32,000 bases of DNA, taken from assembly GCF_008065095.1 (NCBI RefSeq), contig NZ_CP042911.1:8910001-8942000 (forward strand). The letters are read 5' to 3'. The position numbers were made by a program, and so were the translations under genes. Source of the stretch: Gemmata obscuriglobus. Its GTDB lineage: Bacteria; Planctomycetota; Planctomycetia; Gemmatales; Gemmataceae. A model generated the notes under the pieces. It saw only the letters and a program-made list of their open reading frames with translations, made no database searches and had not been told where the DNA came from. Below, piece by piece: positions 15,989-32,000 of the stretch. The stretch's first letter is position 1, and every line of letters starts with the position of its first letter.

Positions 15989-16321
15989 TCACTTTTCCGC
16001 CGGCGCGGTCAGCACCGTGATGTCACCGGAGTAGCGCGGCGCCAGCACCTGCGTCACCTCTTCGAGGTCGAACTTCGCCCCCCTCTTCAGAGTAAACTTC
16101 GCTTGCCGGGTCTTGCCGTTGGTCGTGATCGTGTCGGGCTCTACCCACGGTAGAGTCGCGAGCCGCTCTTTGACGGCTTGCGGGCACGTCACTCACGTCA
16201 TGTCGGGCACTTTGAGCACCACCTGGTTCGGCGCGTCGGTCGGCATCGGCTCGTCCGACCCGCGCGGCGCCGGCGCACACCCGGCCAACGCGAGAACAAG
16301 AACCATCGCACCTGCACGCAT
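15989..16321 (-). CDS. HMA (heavy-metal-associated) domain lipoprotein with in-frame TGA at the first Cys of the CxxC motif: candidate selenoprotein (UxxC)
   Basis: My translation of the minus strand gives ATG 16321, with GGAGG 7 nt upstream. Next come MRAGAMVLVLALAGC (lipobox) and ...NQVVLKVPDMT. The TGA is at 16193-16195 and is followed by VTCPQAVKERLATLPWVE... running to the stop at 15989. The ORF track only shows the GTG-initiated 67-aa tail. Confidence 0.65.
16157..16182 (-). promoter_or_regulatory. candidate bacterial SECIS-like hairpin downstream of the in-frame UGA
   Basis: The mRNA reads 5'-CGCAAGCCG-UCAAAGAG-CGGCUCGCG-3'. It forms 8 base pairs with one A.C mismatch and starts 10 nt after the UGA. 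If the closing G-C pair opens, the loop begins with GU. I folded it by eye only. Confidence 0.35.
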
Positions 16322-16440
16322 GAAATCGCCTCCGAGAGATAAACTCGAAGTAGTTTAGACGCGCCCGCGCCGCGGGGCACAAACTTGTTTGCAGTCCCTG
16401 AAGGGATTACGCTGCAAATACGCCCGTAGGAGCCGCCCCC

Positions 16441-18507
16441 ATGTTCGCGCGCCGCCTCGCTGCTACTCTCGCTCTGCTGCTCGCCGCGGGATCGGCGAGC
16501 GCCCAACCCGGTCCGCAATTGTTGACCGTGTTCCCGCCCGGGGCAAAGGCGGGCGGCGCCGTAGAAGTGACGTTCGCGGGCGTTGGTTTCGATGGCGACG
16601 AGAAGTTGCTGTTCAGTGCGAAGGGCTTTACCGCCGAGCGCGTCGGCGTAGCGACTGCCGATCCCAAGGCGCCGAAAGGCGCACCTGCCGCGAGCGTGAA
16701 GTTCAAAGTCACCGCGCCGAGGGGATTCGCTGGGACGTGCGATGTCCGTGTGGTAAGCAAGAGCGGCCTGAGCAACCCGCGCGCGTTCGCCGTCGGCAGC
16801 GACACGGAGGTGAACGAGGTCGAACCCAACAACGACGTACCGCAGGCTCAAAAAGTCGAACTCGACACGACGATCAACGGCGTCGTGTCGGCGCCAACGG
16901 ACGTGGACTTCGTGACCTTCAAGGCGAAGGCCGGTCAGAACGTCGCGGTGTACTGCCTCACGACGAGCATCGACAGCCGGATGCAAGCCGACTTGATGGT
17001 GAGCGACTCCGAGAGCCGCCAACTCGCCTCGAACCGCAACTACAGGGGCGGCGACGCGGTACTCGACTTCAAAGCTCTGAAAGACGGCGACTACACCGTG
17101 CGCGTGTCCCAATTCGCGTACACGACCGGCGGCCCGGACCACTTCTACCGGCTCACGATCACAACCGCACCGCGGGCGTCCGCGACCTTCCCGCCAGTTG
17201 CCGAAGAAGGCGCCGGTTTGGCGTCGTGGCCCCTCGCCCCTTCGGCCGCGATGGTCGATCTGTTCGAACCGCCTTCGCGTGGTGGAACGCCACGGCTGAT
17301 GGCAGCGAACCCGATCGTAGCTGACGCCGGTACGAACCTCACTGCGGCCGAAGCACAGCTCGTCAAGGGGCCGTGTGACATCGCCGGGCGCATCGCCAAG
17401 AAAGGCGAGCGACACTGGTACAGTTTCGCCGCGAAGAAGGGCGACGTGTGGACGCTCGAAGTGTTCGCGGAGCGCATCGGCTCCCCCGTCGATGCGTACT
17501 TCATTCTCACGGACGAAAAGGGCAAGGTGATCGTCGAACAGGACGACGGTGCGGACACACTGAGCCCGAACCAGTTCTACACCAAGTCCGACGACCCCGG
17601 CCGGTACCGGTTTGCGGTACCGGCGGACGGCACTTACAAGGTGATGGTGTCCACGCGCGAGGCGGCCGTACAGTTCGGCCCGCGGGACCAGTACGTGTTG
17701 CGGATCGCAAAGGAGAAACCGGACTTCCGCCTGGCGGTAATGCCACTGACGCCACACGTCCCGGATGCCGGCACACTCACCGCGGGCAGGGCAGTCGCGC
17801 TCGTGGTGTACGCATTTCGGTTCGACGGCTTCGACGGCGCGATCGAACTCGGTGCCGAGCAACTGCCCCGAGAAGTAAAGTGCCCGAAACAGGTCATCGG
17901 CCCGGGACAAACGCGCGGCGTGCTGGTACTCACCTGCGAGAAGCCCGCAGCGGACTTCGACGGATTCGTCACGATCACCGGAACCGCAGGCAGTTTGAAG
18001 CAAACGGCGCGGCCCTTCAGTGTGACGTGGCCCGTGCAGGGACAACAGGCGAACCAGCCGCCGCCGAACAGCCCGGTACTGACCCGCATGGACCGCGGCC
18101 CCGGATTGGCCCTCGCGATCCGCGGAACAGCGCCGTTCGTTCTTACGCCAACCGAAACGGCGTTTAAGGTGAAGGGCGGCGGTAAGGTCGATGTCACGCT
18201 GAAAATCACGCGCGACACCAGCTTCAAGGAACCGGTCGCGATTTACGTTGCCACCCCGGGATTCGGGCCGCGCCCGCAGGGGAACCAACCGTTCCCGGTA
18301 GTCGGTACTGCGCAACCCAATAGTACCGATATCAAGTTGAACATCGATGTACCCGCGAACCTGCCATCGGGGACACATACGCTCGTGCTGCGCAGTCAGA
18401 GCGGAGCGCCGAACCCGAAGGGCAACAACAGTGCCCCGCGCCCGCTCCCGAACTTCGCGGTGACGCCGCTTACCGTGACAATCGAAGGTGTCCCAAAGAA
18501 GAAATAG
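16441..18507 (+). CDS. secreted protein with two PPC (pre-peptidase C-terminal) domains
   Basis: AGGAG lies 8 nt upstream of ATG 16441. The signal peptide is MFARRLAATLALLLAAGSASAQ. There are two PPC-like blocks (EPNNDVPQAQ..TDVDFVTFKAKAGQNV..GDYTVRV..FYRLTI and GERHWYSFAAKKGDVWTLEV..GTYKVMV..YVLRI). Confidence 0.8.
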   Translation: MFARRLAATLALLLAAGSASAQPGPQLLTVFPPGAKAGGAVEVTFAGVGFDGDEKLLFSAKGFTAERVGVATADPKAPKGAPAASVKFKVTAPRGFAGTCDVRVVSKSGLSNPRAFAVGSDTEVNEVEPNNDVPQAQKVELDTTINGVVSAPTDVDFVTFKAKAGQNVAVYCLTTSIDSRMQADLMVSDSESRQLASNRNYRGGDAVLDFKALKDGDYTVRVSQFAYTTGGPDHFYRLTITTAPRASATFPPVAEEGAGLASWPLAPSAAMVDLFEPPSRGGTPRLMAANPIVADAGTNLTAAEAQLVKGPCDIAGRIAKKGERHWYSFAAKKGDVWTLEVFAERIGSPVDAYFILTDEKGKVIVEQDDGADTLSPNQFYTKSDDPGRYRFAVPADGTYKVMVSTREAAVQFGPRDQYVLRIAKEKPDFRLAVMPLTPHVPDAGTLTAGRAVALVVYAFRFDGFDGAIELGAEQLPREVKCPKQVIGPGQTRGVLVLTCEKPAADFDGFVTITGTAGSLKQTARPFSVTWPVQGQQANQPPPNSPVLTRMDRGPGLALAIRGTAPFVLTPTETAFKVKGGGKVDVTLKITRDTSFKEPVAIYVATPGFGPRPQGNQPFPVVGTAQPNSTDIKLNIDVPANLPSGTHTLVLRSQSGAPNPKGNNSAPRPLPNFAVTPLTVTIEGVPKKK

Positions 18508-21189: not shown

Positions 21190-22765
21190 GTAAGCGTTCA
21201 TGGGGGTGCGCCACCCGCTTTTGCCCGTCATTTTAGCCCGTTTGGATACGCGGTTGCCACAAGCGGGCATGTTCCGTAATCGAGCAGACGTCATGACGCC
21301 TGTTCCTCAACCGCCGGAACTGCCCGATAACTTACCACCGGCGGTGGTGGCGTATATTCGCGCCTTGGAGGCCACGATCACTGCTCTGGTGGCCGAGGTC
21401 GCCGAACTCAAGGCCCGACTCAACCAGAGCTCCACCAACTCGTCGAAGCCGCCCTCGTCCGATCCTCCGCAGGTGAAACTGGCCCCGCCCAAGGCCCCTT
21501 CGGGGAAGCGTCGGGGCGGGCAACCGGGGCATCCCAAAGCCGAGCGCACGCTCCTGCCACCCGATGAGATCCGGACCCTCAAGCCGTCCGTGTGCCGGGA
21601 CTGCTCGCGGTCGCTGGCCGGGGACGATCCGGCTCCGGCCATTCATCAGGTCCACGAGTTGCCCGTTATCAAACCCCACGTGACCGAGTATCGGTGCCAC
21701 CGGCTCCGGTGCCCCCACTGCGGCACGACCACGGTGCCCGCGGTGCCGTCGGAGGCGCGCACCGGATACGGCCCCCGGGCGCAGGCGGTGGCCGCGCTTC
21801 TCACCGGCTCGTGCCGTCTGGGCAAGCGGGGCACGAGCCAACTGTTCGACGATCTGTTCGGCCTGCCCCTGAGCCCGGCCATGGTGTGCAAGCTCCAGCA
21901 CCGAACCGCCGAGGCGCTGAAGCCGGTGGCCGAACAGGCCCTGGTGTACACCCGCGGGCACCCGGCCAACGTGGACGAGACCGGTTGGAAGCAGGGGCGT
22001 CAGCGGGCCTGGCTGTGGGCCGCCGTGACCACGTTCGTGGTGGCGTTCCTGATCCGCCGGACCCGGGGCCGGGCCGCCTTTGATGACCTGCGTGCCGGGT
22101 CCACGGCCGTGCATACGACGGACCGGTATCCGGTGTACACGCACCTCGACAAGTACAAGCGTCAACTCTGCTGGGCGCACCTGCGACGCGATTTCCAGGC
22201 GATGATCGACCGGGGCGGTTCCGGACAGGCGATCGGCGCGGCTCTGTTGGCGTGTTCGGACGCCCTGTTCGAGAACTGGTATCGGGTCCGGGACGGAACC
22301 CTCGCGCGGTCCACATGTCGCTCGACCTACATCCCCGCGTTGCGTCGTCAGGTCGGCACGCACCTGCGGAACGGGGCGGCGTGCGGCTGCGCCAAGACCG
22401 CCACGACCTGCGCGGAACTGTTGTCGGTCGAGGCGTCGTTGTGGACGTTCGCGCGTGTCGTCGGCGTGGAACCGACCAACAACGCGGCCGAGCGTGAGGT
22501 GCGTCACGCCGTGTGCTGGCGCAAAACCAGCTTCGGGACCGACAGCGAACGCGGGAGCCGGTTCGTGGAACGAATCCTCACGGTGATCGCCTCGTGCCGC
22601 CGCCAGAAGCGCAACGTCTTGGCGTTCCTCATCGACGCCGTCACCGCACACCGGACCGGCGCGAAGGCACCGACGCTCGTTCCAGCTGAAGCTCAACAAC
22701 AGAACGTTGTGAATCCGCTACTCGCCAACTGTTGATACACTGCCGCATCACCCGTGAACGCTTAC
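21190..22765 (+). mobile_element. IS66-family insertion sequence (single-ORF type), 1576 bp, with 8-bp target-site duplication CAGGAAAC
   Basis: The terminal inverted repeats are GTAAGCGTTCA (21190-21200) and TGAACGCTTAC (22755-22765). They are perfect over 11 nt and match at about 21 of 25 positions with one gap. The flanks 21182-21189 and 22766-22773 are both caggaaac. Confidence 0.9.
21200..22735 (+). CDS. IS66-family transposase
   Basis: The N-terminal coiled coil (ALEATITALVAEVAELKARL) is followed by NSSKPPSSDPP...GKRRGGQPGHPK, a CxxC..CPHCG zinc-finger region, and the DETGW / HLRRDF catalytic-region motifs typical of IS66 TnpC. Alternative starts are at 21269 and 21293. Confidence 0.9.
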   Translation: MGVRHPLLPVILARLDTRLPQAGMFRNRADVMTPVPQPPELPDNLPPAVVAYIRALEATITALVAEVAELKARLNQSSTNSSKPPSSDPPQVKLAPPKAPSGKRRGGQPGHPKAERTLLPPDEIRTLKPSVCRDCSRSLAGDDPAPAIHQVHELPVIKPHVTEYRCHRLRCPHCGTTTVPAVPSEARTGYGPRAQAVAALLTGSCRLGKRGTSQLFDDLFGLPLSPAMVCKLQHRTAEALKPVAEQALVYTRGHPANVDETGWKQGRQRAWLWAAVTTFVVAFLIRRTRGRAAFDDLRAGSTAVHTTDRYPVYTHLDKYKRQLCWAHLRRDFQAMIDRGGSGQAIGAALLACSDALFENWYRVRDGTLARSTCRSTYIPALRRQVGTHLRNGAACGCAKTATTCAELLSVEASLWTFARVVGVEPTNNAAEREVRHAVCWRKTSFGTDSERGSRFVERILTVIASCRRQKRNVLAFLIDAVTAHRTGAKAPTLVPAEAQQQNVVNPLLANC

Positions 22766-28578: not shown

Positions 28579-29454
28579 TTACCGCTTGGCCATGTCCACG
28601 AGCGCCCGCAGCGACGGCGGGCGGAACCGCTGCTTGTGCCACACCGCACACAACGTGCGCACGGGCGTCGGCTTGCCCAGCGGCCGGTACGCGCACTGCT
28701 TGCTCGTGTCGGCGGTCGCGGCCATCTCGGGAACGATCGACACGCCCTGGCCCGCCGCGACCATCGCCAGCAGTGTCACGATCTGCTCGCCCCGGCACAC
28801 CACCCTCGGTTCGAGCCCGCCCCGGTGACACAGGCTCAGCACCTGGTCGCCGAAGCAGTGCATGTCGTCCAGCAGGATGAACGGCTCCTCCAGCACGTCG
28901 GCCAGCTTCACCTCGGTCTTGGACGCGAGTTCGTGTTTCGCCGGTAGTGCCATCACCAGCGGTTCCGCGAACAGTTTCTCGACGTGCAACCGGTCGTCGC
29001 GGACCGGCATCGCCATCAGCGCCACGTCGAGTTCACCGGCCAACAGGTCGGCCAGCAGCCGCTCGGTGAGGTCCTCCTTCAGTTGCAACTGCACGTTCGG
29101 GTGGTCCTTGCGGAACCGCGTCACCGTGCCCGGCAGCAGAAAGGGTGCGATGGTCGGAATCGCCCCGACGCGCAACGACCCGCCCTCCGCGGAGTCGCGG
29201 ACCGCGCGCTCGGCCTCTTTGACCGCGGCCAGAATCCCCTGGGCGTGTCCCAGCAGCTCCCGCCCGGCGTCGGTGAGGACCACCTTCCGCCCGAGCCGGT
29301 CGAACAGCCGCCGGCCCACCCCGTGCGGCTTGCTCTCGAGCCGCATGATCTGCTCGCTGAGCGTCGGCTGGGTCACGTCCTCGCGCTCCGCGGCGCGGGT
29401 AAAGCTGCCCGTTTCGGCCACCGCAACGAAATACCGGAGCTGATGAAGCTCCAT
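28579..29454 (-). CDS. oxyR: LysR-family transcriptional regulator, OxyR-like
   Basis: The N-terminal HTH is MELHQLRYFVAVAETGSFTRAAE. The segment LLDDMHCFGDQVLSLC keeps the same H-C-x8-C spacing as the redox Cys pair of E. coli OxyR (HCLRDQAMGFC), as I recall it. Confidence 0.65.
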   Translation of the reverse strand: MELHQLRYFVAVAETGSFTRAAEREDVTQPTLSEQIMRLESKPHGVGRRLFDRLGRKVVLTDAGRELLGHAQGILAAVKEAERAVRDSAEGGSLRVGAIPTIAPFLLPGTVTRFRKDHPNVQLQLKEDLTERLLADLLAGELDVALMAMPVRDDRLHVEKLFAEPLVMALPAKHELASKTEVKLADVLEEPFILLDDMHCFGDQVLSLCHRGGLEPRVVCRGEQIVTLLAMVAAGQGVSIVPEMAATADTSKQCAYRPLGKPTPVRTLCAVWHKQRFRPPSLRALVDMAKR

Positions 29455-30991: not shown

Positions 30992-31066
30992 TCGGGCGCG
31001 GGTACCGGGCCGACGAGATCGTCGGGGTGTTGAGCGCGTCCGCGGGCGACGCGCGGTGACGGCGCG
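30992..31066 (+). repeat. direct repeat copy B (remnant of the 3' end of the small membrane-protein gene)
   Basis: See copy A. In-frame translation gives GRGYRADEIVGVLSASAGDAR*, against ERGYRADEIVRVLNASAGDAR* in the intact gene. Confidence 0.85.
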
Positions 31067-31078
31067 TACACTACCCGC

Positions 31079-32000
31079 ATGAGCGACAACCCGTTCCGCG
31101 CCCTCCCGTCCGTCGCCAAGGTGCTGGCCAGTCCCGCGCTCGCGCCCGCACACGAGAGCCACCCGGCCGCGGCGGTCACCGCCCAGGTGCGCGCCGCCCT
31201 CGACCGGCTGCGCGACCGGCTGAAAGCCGGTGAACCGCTGTCCGCCGATGTCGATACGATCGCCCGCGAAGCCATGAGCGCGCTCGACGCCCAAAGCCGC
31301 CCCCTCTTGCGATCGGTCATCAACGCGACCGGCATCGTCCTGCACACCAACCTCGGGCGCTCGCCGCTCCACGAAGAGGCCGCCCGCGCCGCTTACGAGG
31401 CCGCCCGCGGGTACCTCAACCTCGAACTCGACCTCGCGACCGGTAAGCGCTCCTCGCGCCAAAGCCCCGTCCGCGCGGGCCTGAAGGCCGTCACCGGAGC
31501 CGAGGGCGCGACGGCCGTGAACAACTGCGCCGCGGCAACCGTGATCGCGCTCCGGGCGATCGCGGCCGGTAAAGAAGTGGTCGTGTCGCGCGGGCAGTTG
31601 GTCGAGATCGGCGGGAGCTTTCGCATCCCCGATGTGATGGCGGTCAGCGGCGCCGCGCTGCGCGAGGTGGGCACCACCAACATCACCCGCCTGAGCGATT
31701 ACGAGCGCGCGATCACGCCCAACACGGCGGCGCTCATGCGGGTGCATTGCAGCAACTACCGCGTGCGCGGGTACACGAAGTCGGTCGAACTCGAAGACCT
31801 CGTCGCGCTCGGGCGCAAGCACAACCTCCTCGTGATCGACGACGCGGGGAGCGGCCAGGTCGCCGACCTCACCCCCTTCGGACTGCCCGGCGAGCCGCTC
31901 ATTTCCGCGAGCGTGTCCGCCGGCGCGGACCTGGTGCTCTTCAGCGGCGACAAGCTCCTCGGCGGCCCGCAGTGCGGGCTCATCGTCGGAAAGGCCGACC
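31079..32000 (+). CDS. selA: L-seryl-tRNA(Sec) selenium transferase (selenocysteine synthase), 3' partial at window edge
   Basis: My own translation starts at ATG 31079, and the frame stays open to the window end, which is why it is absent from the ORF track. The blocks VINATGIVLHTNLGRS, GKEVVVSRGQLVEIGGSFRIPDVM, VGTTN, ALMRVHCSNYRVRGYTK and FSGDKLLGGPQCGLIVGK align with the E. coli SelA sequence as I recall it. Confidence 0.9.
   Translation, partial: MSDNPFRALPSVAKVLASPALAPAHESHPAAAVTAQVRAALDRLRDRLKAGEPLSADVDTIAREAMSALDAQSRPLLRSVINATGIVLHTNLGRSPLHEEAARAAYEAARGYLNLELDLATGKRSSRQSPVRAGLKAVTGAEGATAVNNCAAATVIALRAIAAGKEVVVSRGQLVEIGGSFRIPDVMAVSGAALREVGTTNITRLSDYERAITPNTAALMRVHCSNYRVRGYTKSVELEDLVALGRKHNLLVIDDAGSGQVADLTPFGLPGEPLISASVSAGADLVLFSGDKLLGGPQCGLIVGKAD

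What the first reader, a model, noticed from the sequence alone, without database searches (positions are those of the whole stretch)
15989..16321. Candidate new selenoprotein: HMA-domain lipoprotein with UGA at the first Cys of the CxxC metal-binding motif
The ORF track shows only a 67-aa GTG-initiated fragment (MTCPQAV...).

The minus strand reads differently. A strong SD (GGAGG, 7-nt spacer) precedes ATG 16321. That start opens a 42-codon lipoprotein signal and first beta-strand: MRAGAMVLVLALAGC...NQVVLKVPDMT. This runs in frame into TGA 16193-16195 and continues as VTCPQAVKERLATLPWVEPD...

Canonical HMA domains read ..V.GMTCxxC..V. Here the motif is D-M-T-[TGA]-V-T-C, so the stop codon sits exactly at the first metal-ligand Cys. 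U/C substitution inside a CxxC redox or metal motif is the classic signature of bacterial selenoproteins.

Three further points support this reading:
- The GTG fragment has no SD of its own.
- A hairpin (16157-16182) starts 10 nt after the UGA. That is close to the ~11-nt spacing reported for the minimal E. coli fdhF SECIS.
- selA lies in the same window.

A periplasmic or outer-leaflet Sec-containing metal-binding lipoprotein would be unusual. I cannot tell from here whether this family is already catalogued.
Basis: partly seen in the sequence, partly recalled or inferred. Interest (0 to 1): 0.85.

Follow-up and report, generated by a model that had tools for sequence, protein, structure and literature searches.

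The report
Selenocysteine MerP-like metal-binding lipoprotein, misannotated
A small Gemmata obscuriglobus gene annotated as a 67-residue fragment is really a 110-residue exported metal-binding lipoprotein whose first metal-ligand cysteine is encoded by UGA as selenocysteine, and it belongs to a Planctomycetia family that databases routinely split in two.

Summary
On the minus strand, ATG 16321 (GGAGG, 7-nt spacer) opens a lipoprotein signal that runs in frame through TGA 16195-16193 to the stop at 15989. With U read as C the protein passes Pfam HMA, and the TGA falls on the first Cys of GMTCxxC.

I recovered 21 further distinct family genes from genomes and metagenomes. Both ligand positions alternate between TGA and Cys codons: 11 UxxU, 7 UxxC (including this window) and 4 CxxC, always in frame.

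Two hairpins follow the UGA.

selA is in the window, and selA, selB, selC and selD are published for this species. A modelled Cys homolog has the HMA fold, closest to periplasmic MerP.

Sec in HMA metal sites is already catalogued (NF041115 UxxU, a ZntA-type ATPase, GOS MerP). This family fails those models' cut-offs and is nowhere named a selenoprotein. It is a solid new member of a known kind. The metal it binds is unknown.

The parts
15989..16321 (-). Complete selenoprotein gene of 110 codons plus stop. It is currently annotated only as the 67-aa GTG fragment GobsT_75420.
   Evidence: Searches give the frame. One search gives the annotation. Searches show the in-frame TGA conserved in 17 other distinct family genes.
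16329..16333 (-). Shine-Dalgarno GGAGG, 7 nt before the ATG at 16321.
   Evidence: GGAGG-like sequences also precede the equivalent ATG in relatives L005, L011, L021, L022 and L026.
16277..16321 (-). Lipoprotein signal peptide with lipobox L-A-G-C (Cys15).
   Evidence: Sequence. A hydrophobic stretch followed by Cys is present in 17 of 19 aligned family members. This is a pattern match only; no dedicated predictor was run.
16193..16195 (-). UGA-1, selenocysteine codon 43 and first metal ligand of the U-x-x-C motif.
   Evidence: It aligns to HMA profile position 9. The same codon is TGA in all 17 intact Sec forms (window included) and in L028, and TGC or TGT in 4 Cys forms.
16184..16186 (-). 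TGC, Cys46 and second metal ligand. The same codon is TGA in the 11 UxxU relatives.
   Evidence: offset 3: TGA 11, TGC 5, TGT 1 among Sec forms.
16157..16182 (-). It is variable in sequence but conserved as a structure, with its loop 19-25 nt after UGA-1.
   Evidence: Searches give the folds; mean z is -2.1 (UxxU) and -2.6 (UxxC) against +0.6 for CxxC forms; 79% of cells pair, with covariation at pair 21-39. One search gives the spacing.
16139..16155 (-). Hairpin 2, the distal SECIS hairpin CUCUACC-GUG-GGUAGAG. It is invariant in Sec forms and lost in Cys forms.
   Evidence: 100% paired in 17 of 17, with a compensatory CG to GC change in L007 and L008; the rare codons CTA (1.1% of Leu) and GTA (5.9% of Val) are used in 16/17 and 17/17 Sec forms and 0/4 Cys forms; the motif occurs only at this gene.
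16007..16219 (-). HMA (ferredoxin-like beta-alpha-beta-beta-alpha-beta) metal-binding domain with a MerP-like V-P-x-M-T-U-x-x-C-P signature.
   Evidence: Pfam. (PDB sequence matches, with MerP 1osd the best single-domain hit). (AF2 model of Cys homolog P0013, pLDDT 87.9; Foldseek top hit MerP 1osd, TM 0.89).
31034..31999 (+). selA (L-seryl-tRNA(Sec) selenium transferase), N-terminal 322 codons, cut by the window end. It is part of the decoding machinery, not of the gene itself.
   Evidence: TIGR00474 414 bits against a cut-off of 267.9, profile positions 1-302 of 455.
16441..18507 (+). Divergently transcribed 688-aa secreted PPC-domain protein. It is a conserved neighbour in close relatives only; no functional link is shown.
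   Evidence: 62-79% identical orthologs sit beside the gene in L001, L005, L006, L007, L008 and L010. Pfam PPC.

Best explanation
The gene at 15989-16321 (minus strand) encodes a 110-residue selenoprotein.

**The protein.** It is a Sec-exported, lipid-anchored, MerP-like HMA-domain protein. Its metal site is Sec43-x-x-Cys46, where canonical proteins have Cys-x-x-Cys.

**Decoding.** When the ribosome reaches UGA 16195-16193, SelB carrying Sec-tRNA(Sec) is recruited by a structured mRNA element just downstream, inside the coding sequence. The element has two parts. A proximal hairpin of variable sequence lies at 16157-16182. A distal hairpin with an invariant GUG loop lies at 16139-16155. Selenocysteine is inserted and translation continues through the rest of the HMA domain.

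**Function.** After export and lipidation the protein sits outside the cytoplasm. There its selenolate/thiolate pair binds a soft metal ion such as Hg(II) or Cu(I) more tightly, and at lower pH, than a dithiolate would. It would act as a scavenger or chaperone.

**What is shown:** the reading frame; the Sec/Cys alternation; RNA constraint specific to Sec forms; the HMA fold of a Cys homolog; and the presence of selA.

**What is inferred:** actual Sec insertion; which hairpin SelB binds; lipidation and location; the metal; and the physiological role.
For: 1. **Frame and motif.** The TGA aligns to the first Cys of the HMA motif, and the protein passes Pfam's cut-off only when read through.
2. 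**Sec/Cys alternation.** Among 22 distinct family genes the two ligand codons are TGA/TGA in 11, TGA/TGY in 7 and TGY/TGC in 4, with the frame intact in all. A profile search found about 36 further full-length proteins. Every intact one I retrieved is CxxC. It also found about 75 'hypothetical' fragments of 58-73 aa that start or stop at the UGAs.
3. **Upstream region is coding.** Against L001 the 42 upstream codons are 23 identical, 10 synonymous and 9 non-synonymous, with differences by codon position of 5/6/12.
4. **No internal restart.** The codon after UGA-1 is GTG in only 3 of 17 Sec forms, so an internal restart is not conserved.
5. **RNA.** Hairpin 2 is fully paired in 17 of 17 Sec forms, with one compensatory change. 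It is built from codons that are rare in these genomes (CTA 1.1-3.4% of Leu, GTA 3.8-5.9% of Val). These are fixed in Sec forms and absent from Cys forms, while other invariant residues vary freely at third positions. Hairpin 1 folds in all Sec forms (z about -2 to -3) but not in Cys forms (z +0.6).
6. **Machinery.** selA is in the window. selA, selB, selC and selD are listed for G. obscuriglobus in PMC4807772 Table S8.
7. **TGA is also a stop.** This gene's own terminator is TGA, so the recoding depends on context.
8. **Fold.** The AF2 model of P0013 (48% identical) has pLDDT 87.9, and its top PDB match is MerP 1osd at TM 0.89. The V-P-x-M-T-C-x-x-C-P signature is shared with MerP.
Against: - There is no direct evidence of selenium incorporation or of the full-length protein.
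- Hairpin 2 lies 44 nt from UGA-1, outside the 16-37 nt range of the published bSECIS model. Hairpin 1 has the right spacing but has a G in the first two loop positions in only 11 of 17 sequences. So neither hairpin alone is a textbook bSECIS.
- No mer or cop genes and no metal transporter are linked to the gene in any locus, so the metal and the role are guesses based on the fold.
- The lipoprotein assignment rests on a lipobox pattern only.
Confidence: 0.9

Rival explanations
1. This is a broken gene or an assembly error. The TGA would be a nonsense mutation or sequencing mistake in an ordinary CxxC HMA gene, and nothing functional would be made beyond, at most, the annotated 67-aa fragment.
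For: Public annotation treats it this way: GobsT_75420 is a 67-aa hypothetical protein. One family member, P0070, does look frameshifted.
Against: The same TGA occurs in 18 distinct sequences from independent genomes and metagenomes at 39-73% identity. Both flanks are under purifying selection. Eleven sequences also have TGA at the second ligand codon, exactly three codons later. A Sec-specific RNA structure is maintained. Recurrent identical nonsense mutations at two ligand codons are not credible.
Confidence: 0.01
2. There are two separate small products. The UGA would terminate a 42-residue lipopeptide, and the downstream 67 codons would be translated independently from GTG 16192 by termination-reinitiation coupling.
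For: In the window a GTG follows the TGA directly, and gene callers predict both halves.
Against: - The split would cut an HMA domain between strand 1 and the metal-binding loop. Neither half passes Pfam alone.
- GTG follows UGA-1 in only 3 of 17 Sec forms; the others have GCN or GGC.
- UxxU forms have a second TGA three codons later that would stop any product restarted at that point.
- There is no SD before the GTG.
- CxxC homologs are single polypeptides.
Confidence: 0.02
3. The UGA is read through, but not as selenocysteine. Near-cognate or suppressor decoding, or Cys-charged tRNA(Sec) when selenium is scarce, would insert Cys or Trp, so the mature protein would carry little or no selenium.
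For: This cannot be excluded by sequence analysis. Cys insertion at Sec codons under selenium limitation is known from established work on other systems (my own knowledge, not tested here).
Against: The alternation is strictly with Cys codons at metal-ligand positions. A dedicated downstream structure co-varies with the presence of TGA. The organism has the full Sec machinery. These three features together are the signature of SelB-dependent Sec insertion.
Confidence: 0.05
4. It is a selenoprotein, but the U-x-x-C/U pair acts as a redox centre rather than a metal site. It would be an extracytoplasmic thiol/selenol oxidoreductase or a selenium- or sulfur-trafficking protein.
For: Most bacterial selenoproteins with UxxC motifs are redox proteins (PMC13188914). 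No metal-homeostasis genes are linked to the gene. MerP itself crystallises with an oxidised CxxC disulfide (the 1osd title).
Against: The fold and the signature V-P-G-M-T-C-x-x-C-P are those of HMA metal binders, MerP in particular, and not of the thioredoxin fold. Catalogued HMA-type selenoproteins are all interpreted as metal-handling proteins.
Confidence: 0.15

Closest known systems
MerP, the periplasmic Hg(II)-binding protein of mer operons (TIGR02052; PDB 1osd, 1afi)
   Same: Both are exported single HMA domains. They share the V-P-G-M-T-C-x-x-C-P signature. MerP is the best single-domain sequence match in the PDB and the best structural match (TM 0.89).
   Different: - Family members score 22-36 bits against the equivalog cut-off of 92.55.
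- There is no merT, merA or merR nearby.
- This family is lipid-anchored rather than soluble.
- It has an extra invariant P-M-P-T-D-G-P-N-Q segment before strand 1.
- It has Sec at one or both ligand positions.
NCBIfam NF041115 UxxU_metal_bind, 'metal-binding (seleno)protein', originally the 'putative mercuric reductase' UxxU from Olavius algarvensis symbionts
   Same: It is a small HMA-like protein with selenocysteine at both positions of the CxxC metal motif, the same principle as the UxxU forms of this family.
   Different: Members of this family score only 24-36 bits against the cut-off of 95, so it is a different family. The NF041115 profile is 74 residues long; whether its members have a signal peptide or lipobox was not checked here. 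Whether the two families share a SECIS architecture could not be tested, because no NF041115 sequences were available.
UxxC cation-transporting P-type ATPase (COG2217 ZntA, Carboxydothermus hydrogenoformans ABB15669) and NF045683 MerT/CopZ fusion-like selenoprotein
   Same: Sec replaces the first Cys of an HMA-type metal motif in a metal-handling protein.
   Different: In those cases the HMA module is a cytoplasmic domain of a large membrane transporter or a fusion protein. Here it is a free-standing, extracytoplasmic lipoprotein. The NF045683 score is 17.9 bits against a cut-off of 375.
Consensus bacterial SECIS (bSECISearch model; E. coli fdhF as the paradigm)
   Same: It is a stem-loop inside the coding sequence just 3' of the UGA. 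Hairpin 2 has a 7-bp stem, a 3-nt loop beginning G-U and an MFE near -9 kcal/mol. Hairpin 1 has its loop 19-25 nt from UGA-1.
   Different: The features are split between two adjacent hairpins. The invariant G-U loop lies 44 nt from UGA-1, outside the 16-37 nt range, and 35 nt from UGA-2. The correctly spaced hairpin has no conserved loop sequence. In UxxU forms the element must serve two UGAs 9 nt apart.

Membership tests
Bacterial selenoprotein gene (SelB/SECIS-dependent UGA recoding) | An in-frame UGA with a conserved coding frame on both sides | tested here: met
Bacterial selenoprotein gene (SelB/SECIS-dependent UGA recoding) | Homologs carry Cys (or Sec) at the aligned position | tested here: met
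   Among 22 distinct sequences there are 11 UxxU, 7 UxxC and 4 CxxC forms. Further CxxC full-length proteins appear.
Bacterial selenoprotein gene (SelB/SECIS-dependent UGA recoding) | A conserved stem-loop immediately downstream of the UGA, present only when the UGA is present | tested here: met
Bacterial selenoprotein gene (SelB/SECIS-dependent UGA recoding) | The host genome encodes selA, selB, selC and selD | tested here: met
   selA was found in the window. selB, selC and selD were not testable from the window; they are taken from PMC4807772 Table S8.
Bacterial selenoprotein gene (SelB/SECIS-dependent UGA recoding) | Selenium is demonstrably incorporated at the UGA | not testable with these tools
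   This needs 75Se labelling or mass spectrometry.
Published bSECIS consensus model (PMC13188914) | A single hairpin with a 3-9 nt loop, a 4-16 bp stem, G in the first two loop positions, 16-37 nt from the UGA, and MFE of -7.5 kcal/mol or lower | tested here: inconclusive
   Hairpin 2 meets the loop, stem, G and MFE criteria in 17 of 17 sequences but lies 44 nt from UGA-1 (35 nt from UGA-2). Hairpin 1 meets the spacing in 17 of 17, G in 11 of 17 and MFE in 14 of 17. No single hairpin meets every criterion for UGA-1 in the window.
Pfam HMA (PF00403) | A score above the gathering threshold, with the CxxC aligned to the motif | tested here: met
   30.6 bits against 24.8 with U read as C; the TGA falls on profile position 9.
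Pfam HMA (PF00403) | A beta-alpha-beta-beta-alpha-beta ferredoxin-like fold with the ligands on loop 1 and the start of helix 1 | tested here: met
   The AF2 model of Cys-form homolog P0013 has pLDDT 87.9, and all top Foldseek matches are HMA domains. This is a proxy, not the window protein itself.
NCBIfam NF041115 UxxU_metal_bind | A score at or above the curated cut-off of 95 bits | tested here: not met
   23.7 bits for the window protein and 23.6-35.6 bits for six of the seven relatives tested; the seventh (the L016 CxxC form) gave no hit at E <= 0.01.
MerP (TIGR02052 equivalog) | A score at or above 92.55 bits | tested here: not met
   22-36 bits.
MerP (TIGR02052 equivalog) | Location in a mer operon with merT, merA and merR | tested here: not met
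   Neighbours are a PPC-domain protein, a CPBP protease, AroD/E, DapA, aconitase and a methyltransferase.
Bacterial lipoprotein | An N-terminal hydrophobic signal followed by a lipobox [LVI][ASTVI][GAS]C | tested here: met
   L-A-G-C lies at residues 12-15, and a Cys is conserved at this position in 17 of 19 members. This is a pattern match only; lipidation itself is not testable here.

The most novel reading that the evidence does not exclude
The two-hairpin element may be a distinct class of bacterial SECIS. In this reading the invariant distal GUG-loop hairpin is the SelB-binding site, even though it lies 44 nt from UGA-1. The variable proximal hairpin would act as a folded spacer that brings it to the right distance. 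One element could then recode two UGAs only 9 nt apart, producing an extracytoplasmic lipoprotein with a diselenolate (UxxU) or selenolate-thiolate (UxxC) metal site. The family would be the first Planctomycetia-specific selenoprotein family, present in a culturable and genetically tractable host.
Probability: 0.3. Interest if true: 0.65.

Novelty: new member of a known kind. Interest (0 to 1): 0.5.

Why it matters
**Annotation.** The gene, and at least about 75 database clusters like it, are currently split into two 'hypothetical proteins' (from Gemmata, Frigoriglobus, Isosphaera and many soil and freshwater metagenomes). A dedicated profile that allows U would repair all of them.

**Biology.** It adds a well-supported, lineage-specific family to the small set of selenoproteins in which Sec is a metal ligand rather than a redox catalyst.

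- The family sits outside the cytoplasm.
- It contains natural UxxU, UxxC and CxxC variants, with repeated switching at the second position. That makes it a ready-made series for asking what selenium contributes to soft-metal binding.

**Mechanism.** The tandem-hairpin element, with its invariant distal loop, is a testable case of a non-consensus bacterial SECIS that serves two closely spaced UGAs.

**Limits.** None of this overturns current understanding, since Sec in HMA motifs has been predicted since 2007-2008.

Tried and rejected
- **Structure prediction of the window protein.** I modelled a Cys-form homolog instead.
- **Rfam.** There was no hit at gathering thresholds over the whole window. 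The only permissive hit on the gene was a chance sRNA match at E = 2.6.
- **tRNA-Sec.** ARAGORN found no tRNA at all in the window.
- **Genome-collection scan.** It returned only one relative, partly because one of the back-translated patterns spanned the U codon. The metagenome scan with a three-sequence alignment worked better.
- **Operon context.** I looked for a conserved metal-resistance neighbourhood and found none. The CPBP protease downstream is not conserved, and the PPC-domain neighbour is syntenic only in close relatives.
- **Promoter and terminator scan.** Nothing was found around the gene.
- **selA.** My first two passes over listed ORFs missed it, because the ORF tool omits ORFs that run off the window end. 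It was found after frame-calling by GC3.
- **A single consensus register for hairpin 1.** Its pairs fall into at least two registers among sequences, so RNAalifold reports only hairpin 2.
- **Rejected readings.** Pseudogene, and two independent small ORFs; see the rival explanations.
Full report
**1. The observation**

- GGAGG lies at 16333-16329, followed by a 7-nt spacer and ATG 16321.
- Forty-two codons follow: MRAGAMVLVLALAGCAPAPRGSDEPMPTDAPNQVVLKVPDMT.
- TGA lies at 16195-16193.
- A further 67 sense codons follow: VTCPQAV...TAPAEK.
- The terminator at 15991-15989 is itself TGA.

The mechanical ORF list shows only the two halves.

With U read as C the 110-residue protein scores 30.6 bits on Pfam HMA (cut-off 24.8). 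The match runs from residue 35 at profile position 1, which places the TGA on profile position 9, the first Cys of GMTCxxC. The GTG-initiated fragment alone scores 14.7 bits.

The source is Gemmata obscuriglobus. There the gene is annotated only as the 67-aa hypothetical protein GobsT_75420.

**2. Comparative test**

*First relatives.* A 73%-identical relative from public sequencing runs (L001-L003) has the same layout, which gene callers also split into 42 + 73 aa.

- Its TGA is at the same codon, and its motif is G-M-A-[TGA]-V-T-C.
- Against it, the 42 upstream codons are 23 identical, 10 synonymous and 9 non-synonymous.
- Differences by codon position are 5/6/12, so the upstream region is coding in this frame.

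A MAG relative (L004) has TGA at both ligand positions: A-M-T-[TGA]-A-T-[TGA]-P.

*Wider sampling.* A metagenome scan added 25 loci. Across 22 distinct sequences, counting the window, the states are as follows, with the frame intact throughout:

| State | Count |
|---|---|
| UxxU | 11 |
| UxxC (including the window) | 7 |
| CxxC | 4 |

*Profile search of 5.8 billion proteins.* It returned 114 hits with a bimodal length distribution:

- About 36 are full-length, and every intact one I retrieved is CxxC. They are named 'heavy metal-associated domain-containing protein' or 'copper chaperone CopZ'.
- About 75 are 'hypothetical' pieces of 58-73 aa.
- Those pieces either begin just before TLPWVE or end exactly at ...KVPGMT. 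They come from Gemmata, Frigoriglobus tundricola, Isosphaera and many metagenomes.
- None is named a selenoprotein.

*Tree.* On a neighbour-joining tree the UxxC forms are scattered among UxxU forms, so the second ligand has switched between Sec and Cys several times. The CxxC forms sampled make one clade.

**3. The RNA element**

I number from the U of UGA-1 as nt 1 (window 16195). Every Sec form folds into two adjacent hairpins.

- It differs in sequence, and even in pairing register, among members, yet it always forms.
- Mean z is -2.1 in UxxU forms and -2.6 in UxxC forms, against +0.6 in CxxC forms.
- In one register, 79% of cells pair and pair 21-39 covaries (CG 4, GC 3, UA 2).

*Hairpin 2* (nt 41-57; window 16139-16155; CUCUACC-GUG-GGUAGAG) pairs in 100% of cells, with a compensatory C-G to G-C change in L007 and L008.

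Because hairpin 2 encodes the conserved peptide T-L-P-W-V-E, invariance alone would prove little. Codon usage is the decisive evidence:

| Codon | Share in background genes (window / locus flanks) | Sec forms | Cys forms |
|---|---|---|---|
| CTA (Leu) | 1.1% / 3.4% | 16 of 17 | 0 of 4 |
| GTA (Val) | 5.9% / 3.8% | 17 of 17 | 0 of 4 |
| U at the third position of the preceding codon (ACT is 6.1% / 4.8% of Thr) | - | 17 of 17 | 0 of 4 |

Other invariant Val, Pro and Thr residues of the same gene vary freely at third positions. The A of CUA pairs with the U of GUA, and the U of CUA pairs with the A of GUA. So these rare codons are exactly what the stem requires.

The 15-nt core of hairpin 2 occurs once in the window and once in each Sec-form locus, and never in the Cys-form loci.

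**4. Fit to the published bSECIS model**

The model (PMC13188914) requires four things:

- a 3-9 nt loop on a 4-16 bp stem;
- a G in the first two loop positions;
- 16-37 nt between the UGA and the loop;
- an MFE of -7.5 kcal/mol or lower.

Scored per sequence:

| Hairpin | Loop, stem | G in first two loop positions | MFE | Spacing from UGA-1 | Spacing from UGA-2 |
|---|---|---|---|---|---|
| 2 | 17 of 17 | 17 of 17 | 17 of 17 | 44 nt (out of range) | 35 nt (in range) |
| 1 | 15 of 17 | 11 of 17 | 14 of 17 | 19-25 nt (in range) | 10-16 nt (15 of 17 below 16) |

One reading is that each hairpin serves one UGA. Two facts argue against that. Hairpin 2 remains intact in every intact UxxC lineage, which has no UGA-2. 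And its one compensatory change lies inside such a lineage (L007/L008). So hairpin 2 is still selected when only UGA-1 must be decoded.

I therefore favour a composite element in which hairpin 2 carries the conserved recognition loop and hairpin 1 is an obligatory structured neighbour. This is inference; which hairpin SelB binds is not shown.

Rfam has no model that recognises the element.

**5. Decoding machinery**

- The window contains the 5' two-thirds of selA at 31034-31999 (+): TIGR00474 414 bits against a cut-off of 267.9. I missed it at first because ORFs that run off the window are not listed.
- No tRNA lies in the window.
- PMC4807772 states that G. obscuriglobus has the full set of Sec-insertion genes. 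Its Table S8 gives gene identifiers for selA, selB, selC and selD in G. obscuriglobus, and also in Isosphaera pallida.

**6. The protein**

- *Lipoprotein signal.* The N-terminus has a hydrophobic stretch ending in the lipobox L-A-G-C. A Cys at this position is present in 17 of 19 aligned members.
I therefore modelled Cys-form homolog P0013 (48% identical over the full length) with a 33-sequence alignment. Mean pLDDT is 87.9, the order is beta-alpha-beta-beta-alpha-beta, and the CxxC sits on the loop entering helix 1.
- *Structural neighbours.* The best Foldseek match in the PDB is MerP from Ralstonia metallidurans (1osd; TM 0.89, rmsd 2.2 Å), followed by HMA domains of copper ATPases and chaperones.
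- *Sequence neighbours.* MerP is also the best single-domain PDB match by sequence. The alignment shows a shared V-P-x-M-T-C-x-x-C-P signature, including the Pro after the second ligand, which the copper-ATPase domains lack.
- *Family-specific segment.* An invariant segment P-M-P-T-D-G-P-N-Q precedes strand 1 and is modelled with high confidence.

**7. Genomic context**

- A divergently transcribed 688-aa PPC-domain protein is syntenic in the closer relatives.
- The downstream CPBP-type protease is not conserved.
- More distant members sit among unrelated housekeeping genes.
- No mer or cop genes and no metal transporter are linked to the gene.

The functional assignment therefore rests on fold and motif alone: an extracytoplasmic soft-metal binder, with Hg(II) or Cu(I) the most plausible metals by analogy with MerP and HMA chaperones. 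A redox role for the U-x-x-C pair cannot be excluded.

**8. Comparison with what is known**

Selenocysteine in HMA-type metal motifs is already catalogued:

- NCBIfam NF041115 'UxxU_metal_bind, metal-binding (seleno)protein', originally a 'putative mercuric reductase' from Olavius symbionts.
- NF045683, 'MerT/CopZ fusion-like heavy metal transport selenoprotein'.
- A UxxC ZntA-type ATPase from Carboxydothermus.
- A 'MerP' selenoprotein in the GOS survey.

The present family is not a member of any of these models. It scores 24-36 bits against 95 for NF041115, 22-36 against 92.55 for MerP, and 17.9 against 375 for NF045683.

Neither recent review of prokaryotic selenoproteomes contains the word Planctomycetes, and PMC13188914, the one also searched for 'lipoprotein', does not contain that word either. 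The Porphyra planctomycete paper's supplementary files gave no hits for 'HMA' in my term search.

I could not compare sequences directly with the NF041115 seeds or the GOS MerP sequences. A small chance therefore remains that an isolated member was listed before.

**9. Verdict**

It is a selenoprotein gene that annotation has split, and it represents a sizeable Planctomycetia family with UxxU, UxxC and CxxC members.

What it adds:

- the family itself;
- its extracytoplasmic lipoprotein nature;
- the natural Sec/Cys series at both ligand positions;
- a non-consensus tandem-hairpin SECIS.

What it does not add is a new principle. I rate it a new member of a known kind, of moderate interest (0.5).

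Noticed in passing
window 31034-31999 (+) and 28579-29454 (-): selA runs off the 3' end of the window. About 1.6 kb upstream lies a divergent LysR-family regulator. Among many LysR models it also matches 'selenium metabolism-associated LysR' NF040786 at 153.9 bits, below that model's cut-off of 250.
   Followed up: partly
window 21200-22735 (+): An IS66-family transposase (NF033517, 297.8 bits against a cut-off of 180) lies about 5 kb from the selenoprotein gene.
   Followed up: no
L012 and L013 (contig FWPU01000006.1, 89725-96021 and 760004-766300 reversed): The same 856-kb contig carries the UxxU gene twice. The gene-region translations and the 114-nt motif/SECIS segment are identical and in inverted orientation. 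This is either a large inverted duplication or an assembly artefact.
   Followed up: no
L028 1121-1291: This UxxC member departs from the family sequence in the middle of hairpin 2 (...CTACCGTGGGTA|TGCTTTG...) and then runs on as unrelated text. The contig end is probably chimeric or rearranged. I excluded it from the RNA statistics.
   Followed up: partly
P0070 (database protein, 111 aa): This is a family member whose motif region reads as out-of-frame text (KVPEYDLTRLTRQREECPRDSTVGRG...) before returning to the family sequence. It is a probable frameshifted gene or sequencing error.
   Followed up: no
window 16225-16251 (-), residues 24-32; family alignment A5: An invariant or nearly invariant segment, (E)P-M-P-T-D-G-P-N-Q, directly precedes strand 1. 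It is not part of the canonical HMA domain, yet it is modelled at pLDDT 89-97. Its role is unknown.
   Followed up: no
window 16126-16134 and 16185-16192 (-): In the window and its closest relatives a further long-range stem (GUGACGUG with CACG.AUCAC) closes both hairpins into a three-way junction. More distant members show other closing stems, some of which include the UGA itself. I did not establish whether this is conserved or a by-product of high G+C content.
   Followed up: partly
window 16441-18507 (+): A 688-aa secreted PPC-domain protein is divergently transcribed from the selenoprotein gene. It is syntenic, at 62-79% identity, in L001, L005, L006, L007, L008 and L010. Its function is unknown, and it is not linked to the gene in more distant members.
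   Followed up: partly
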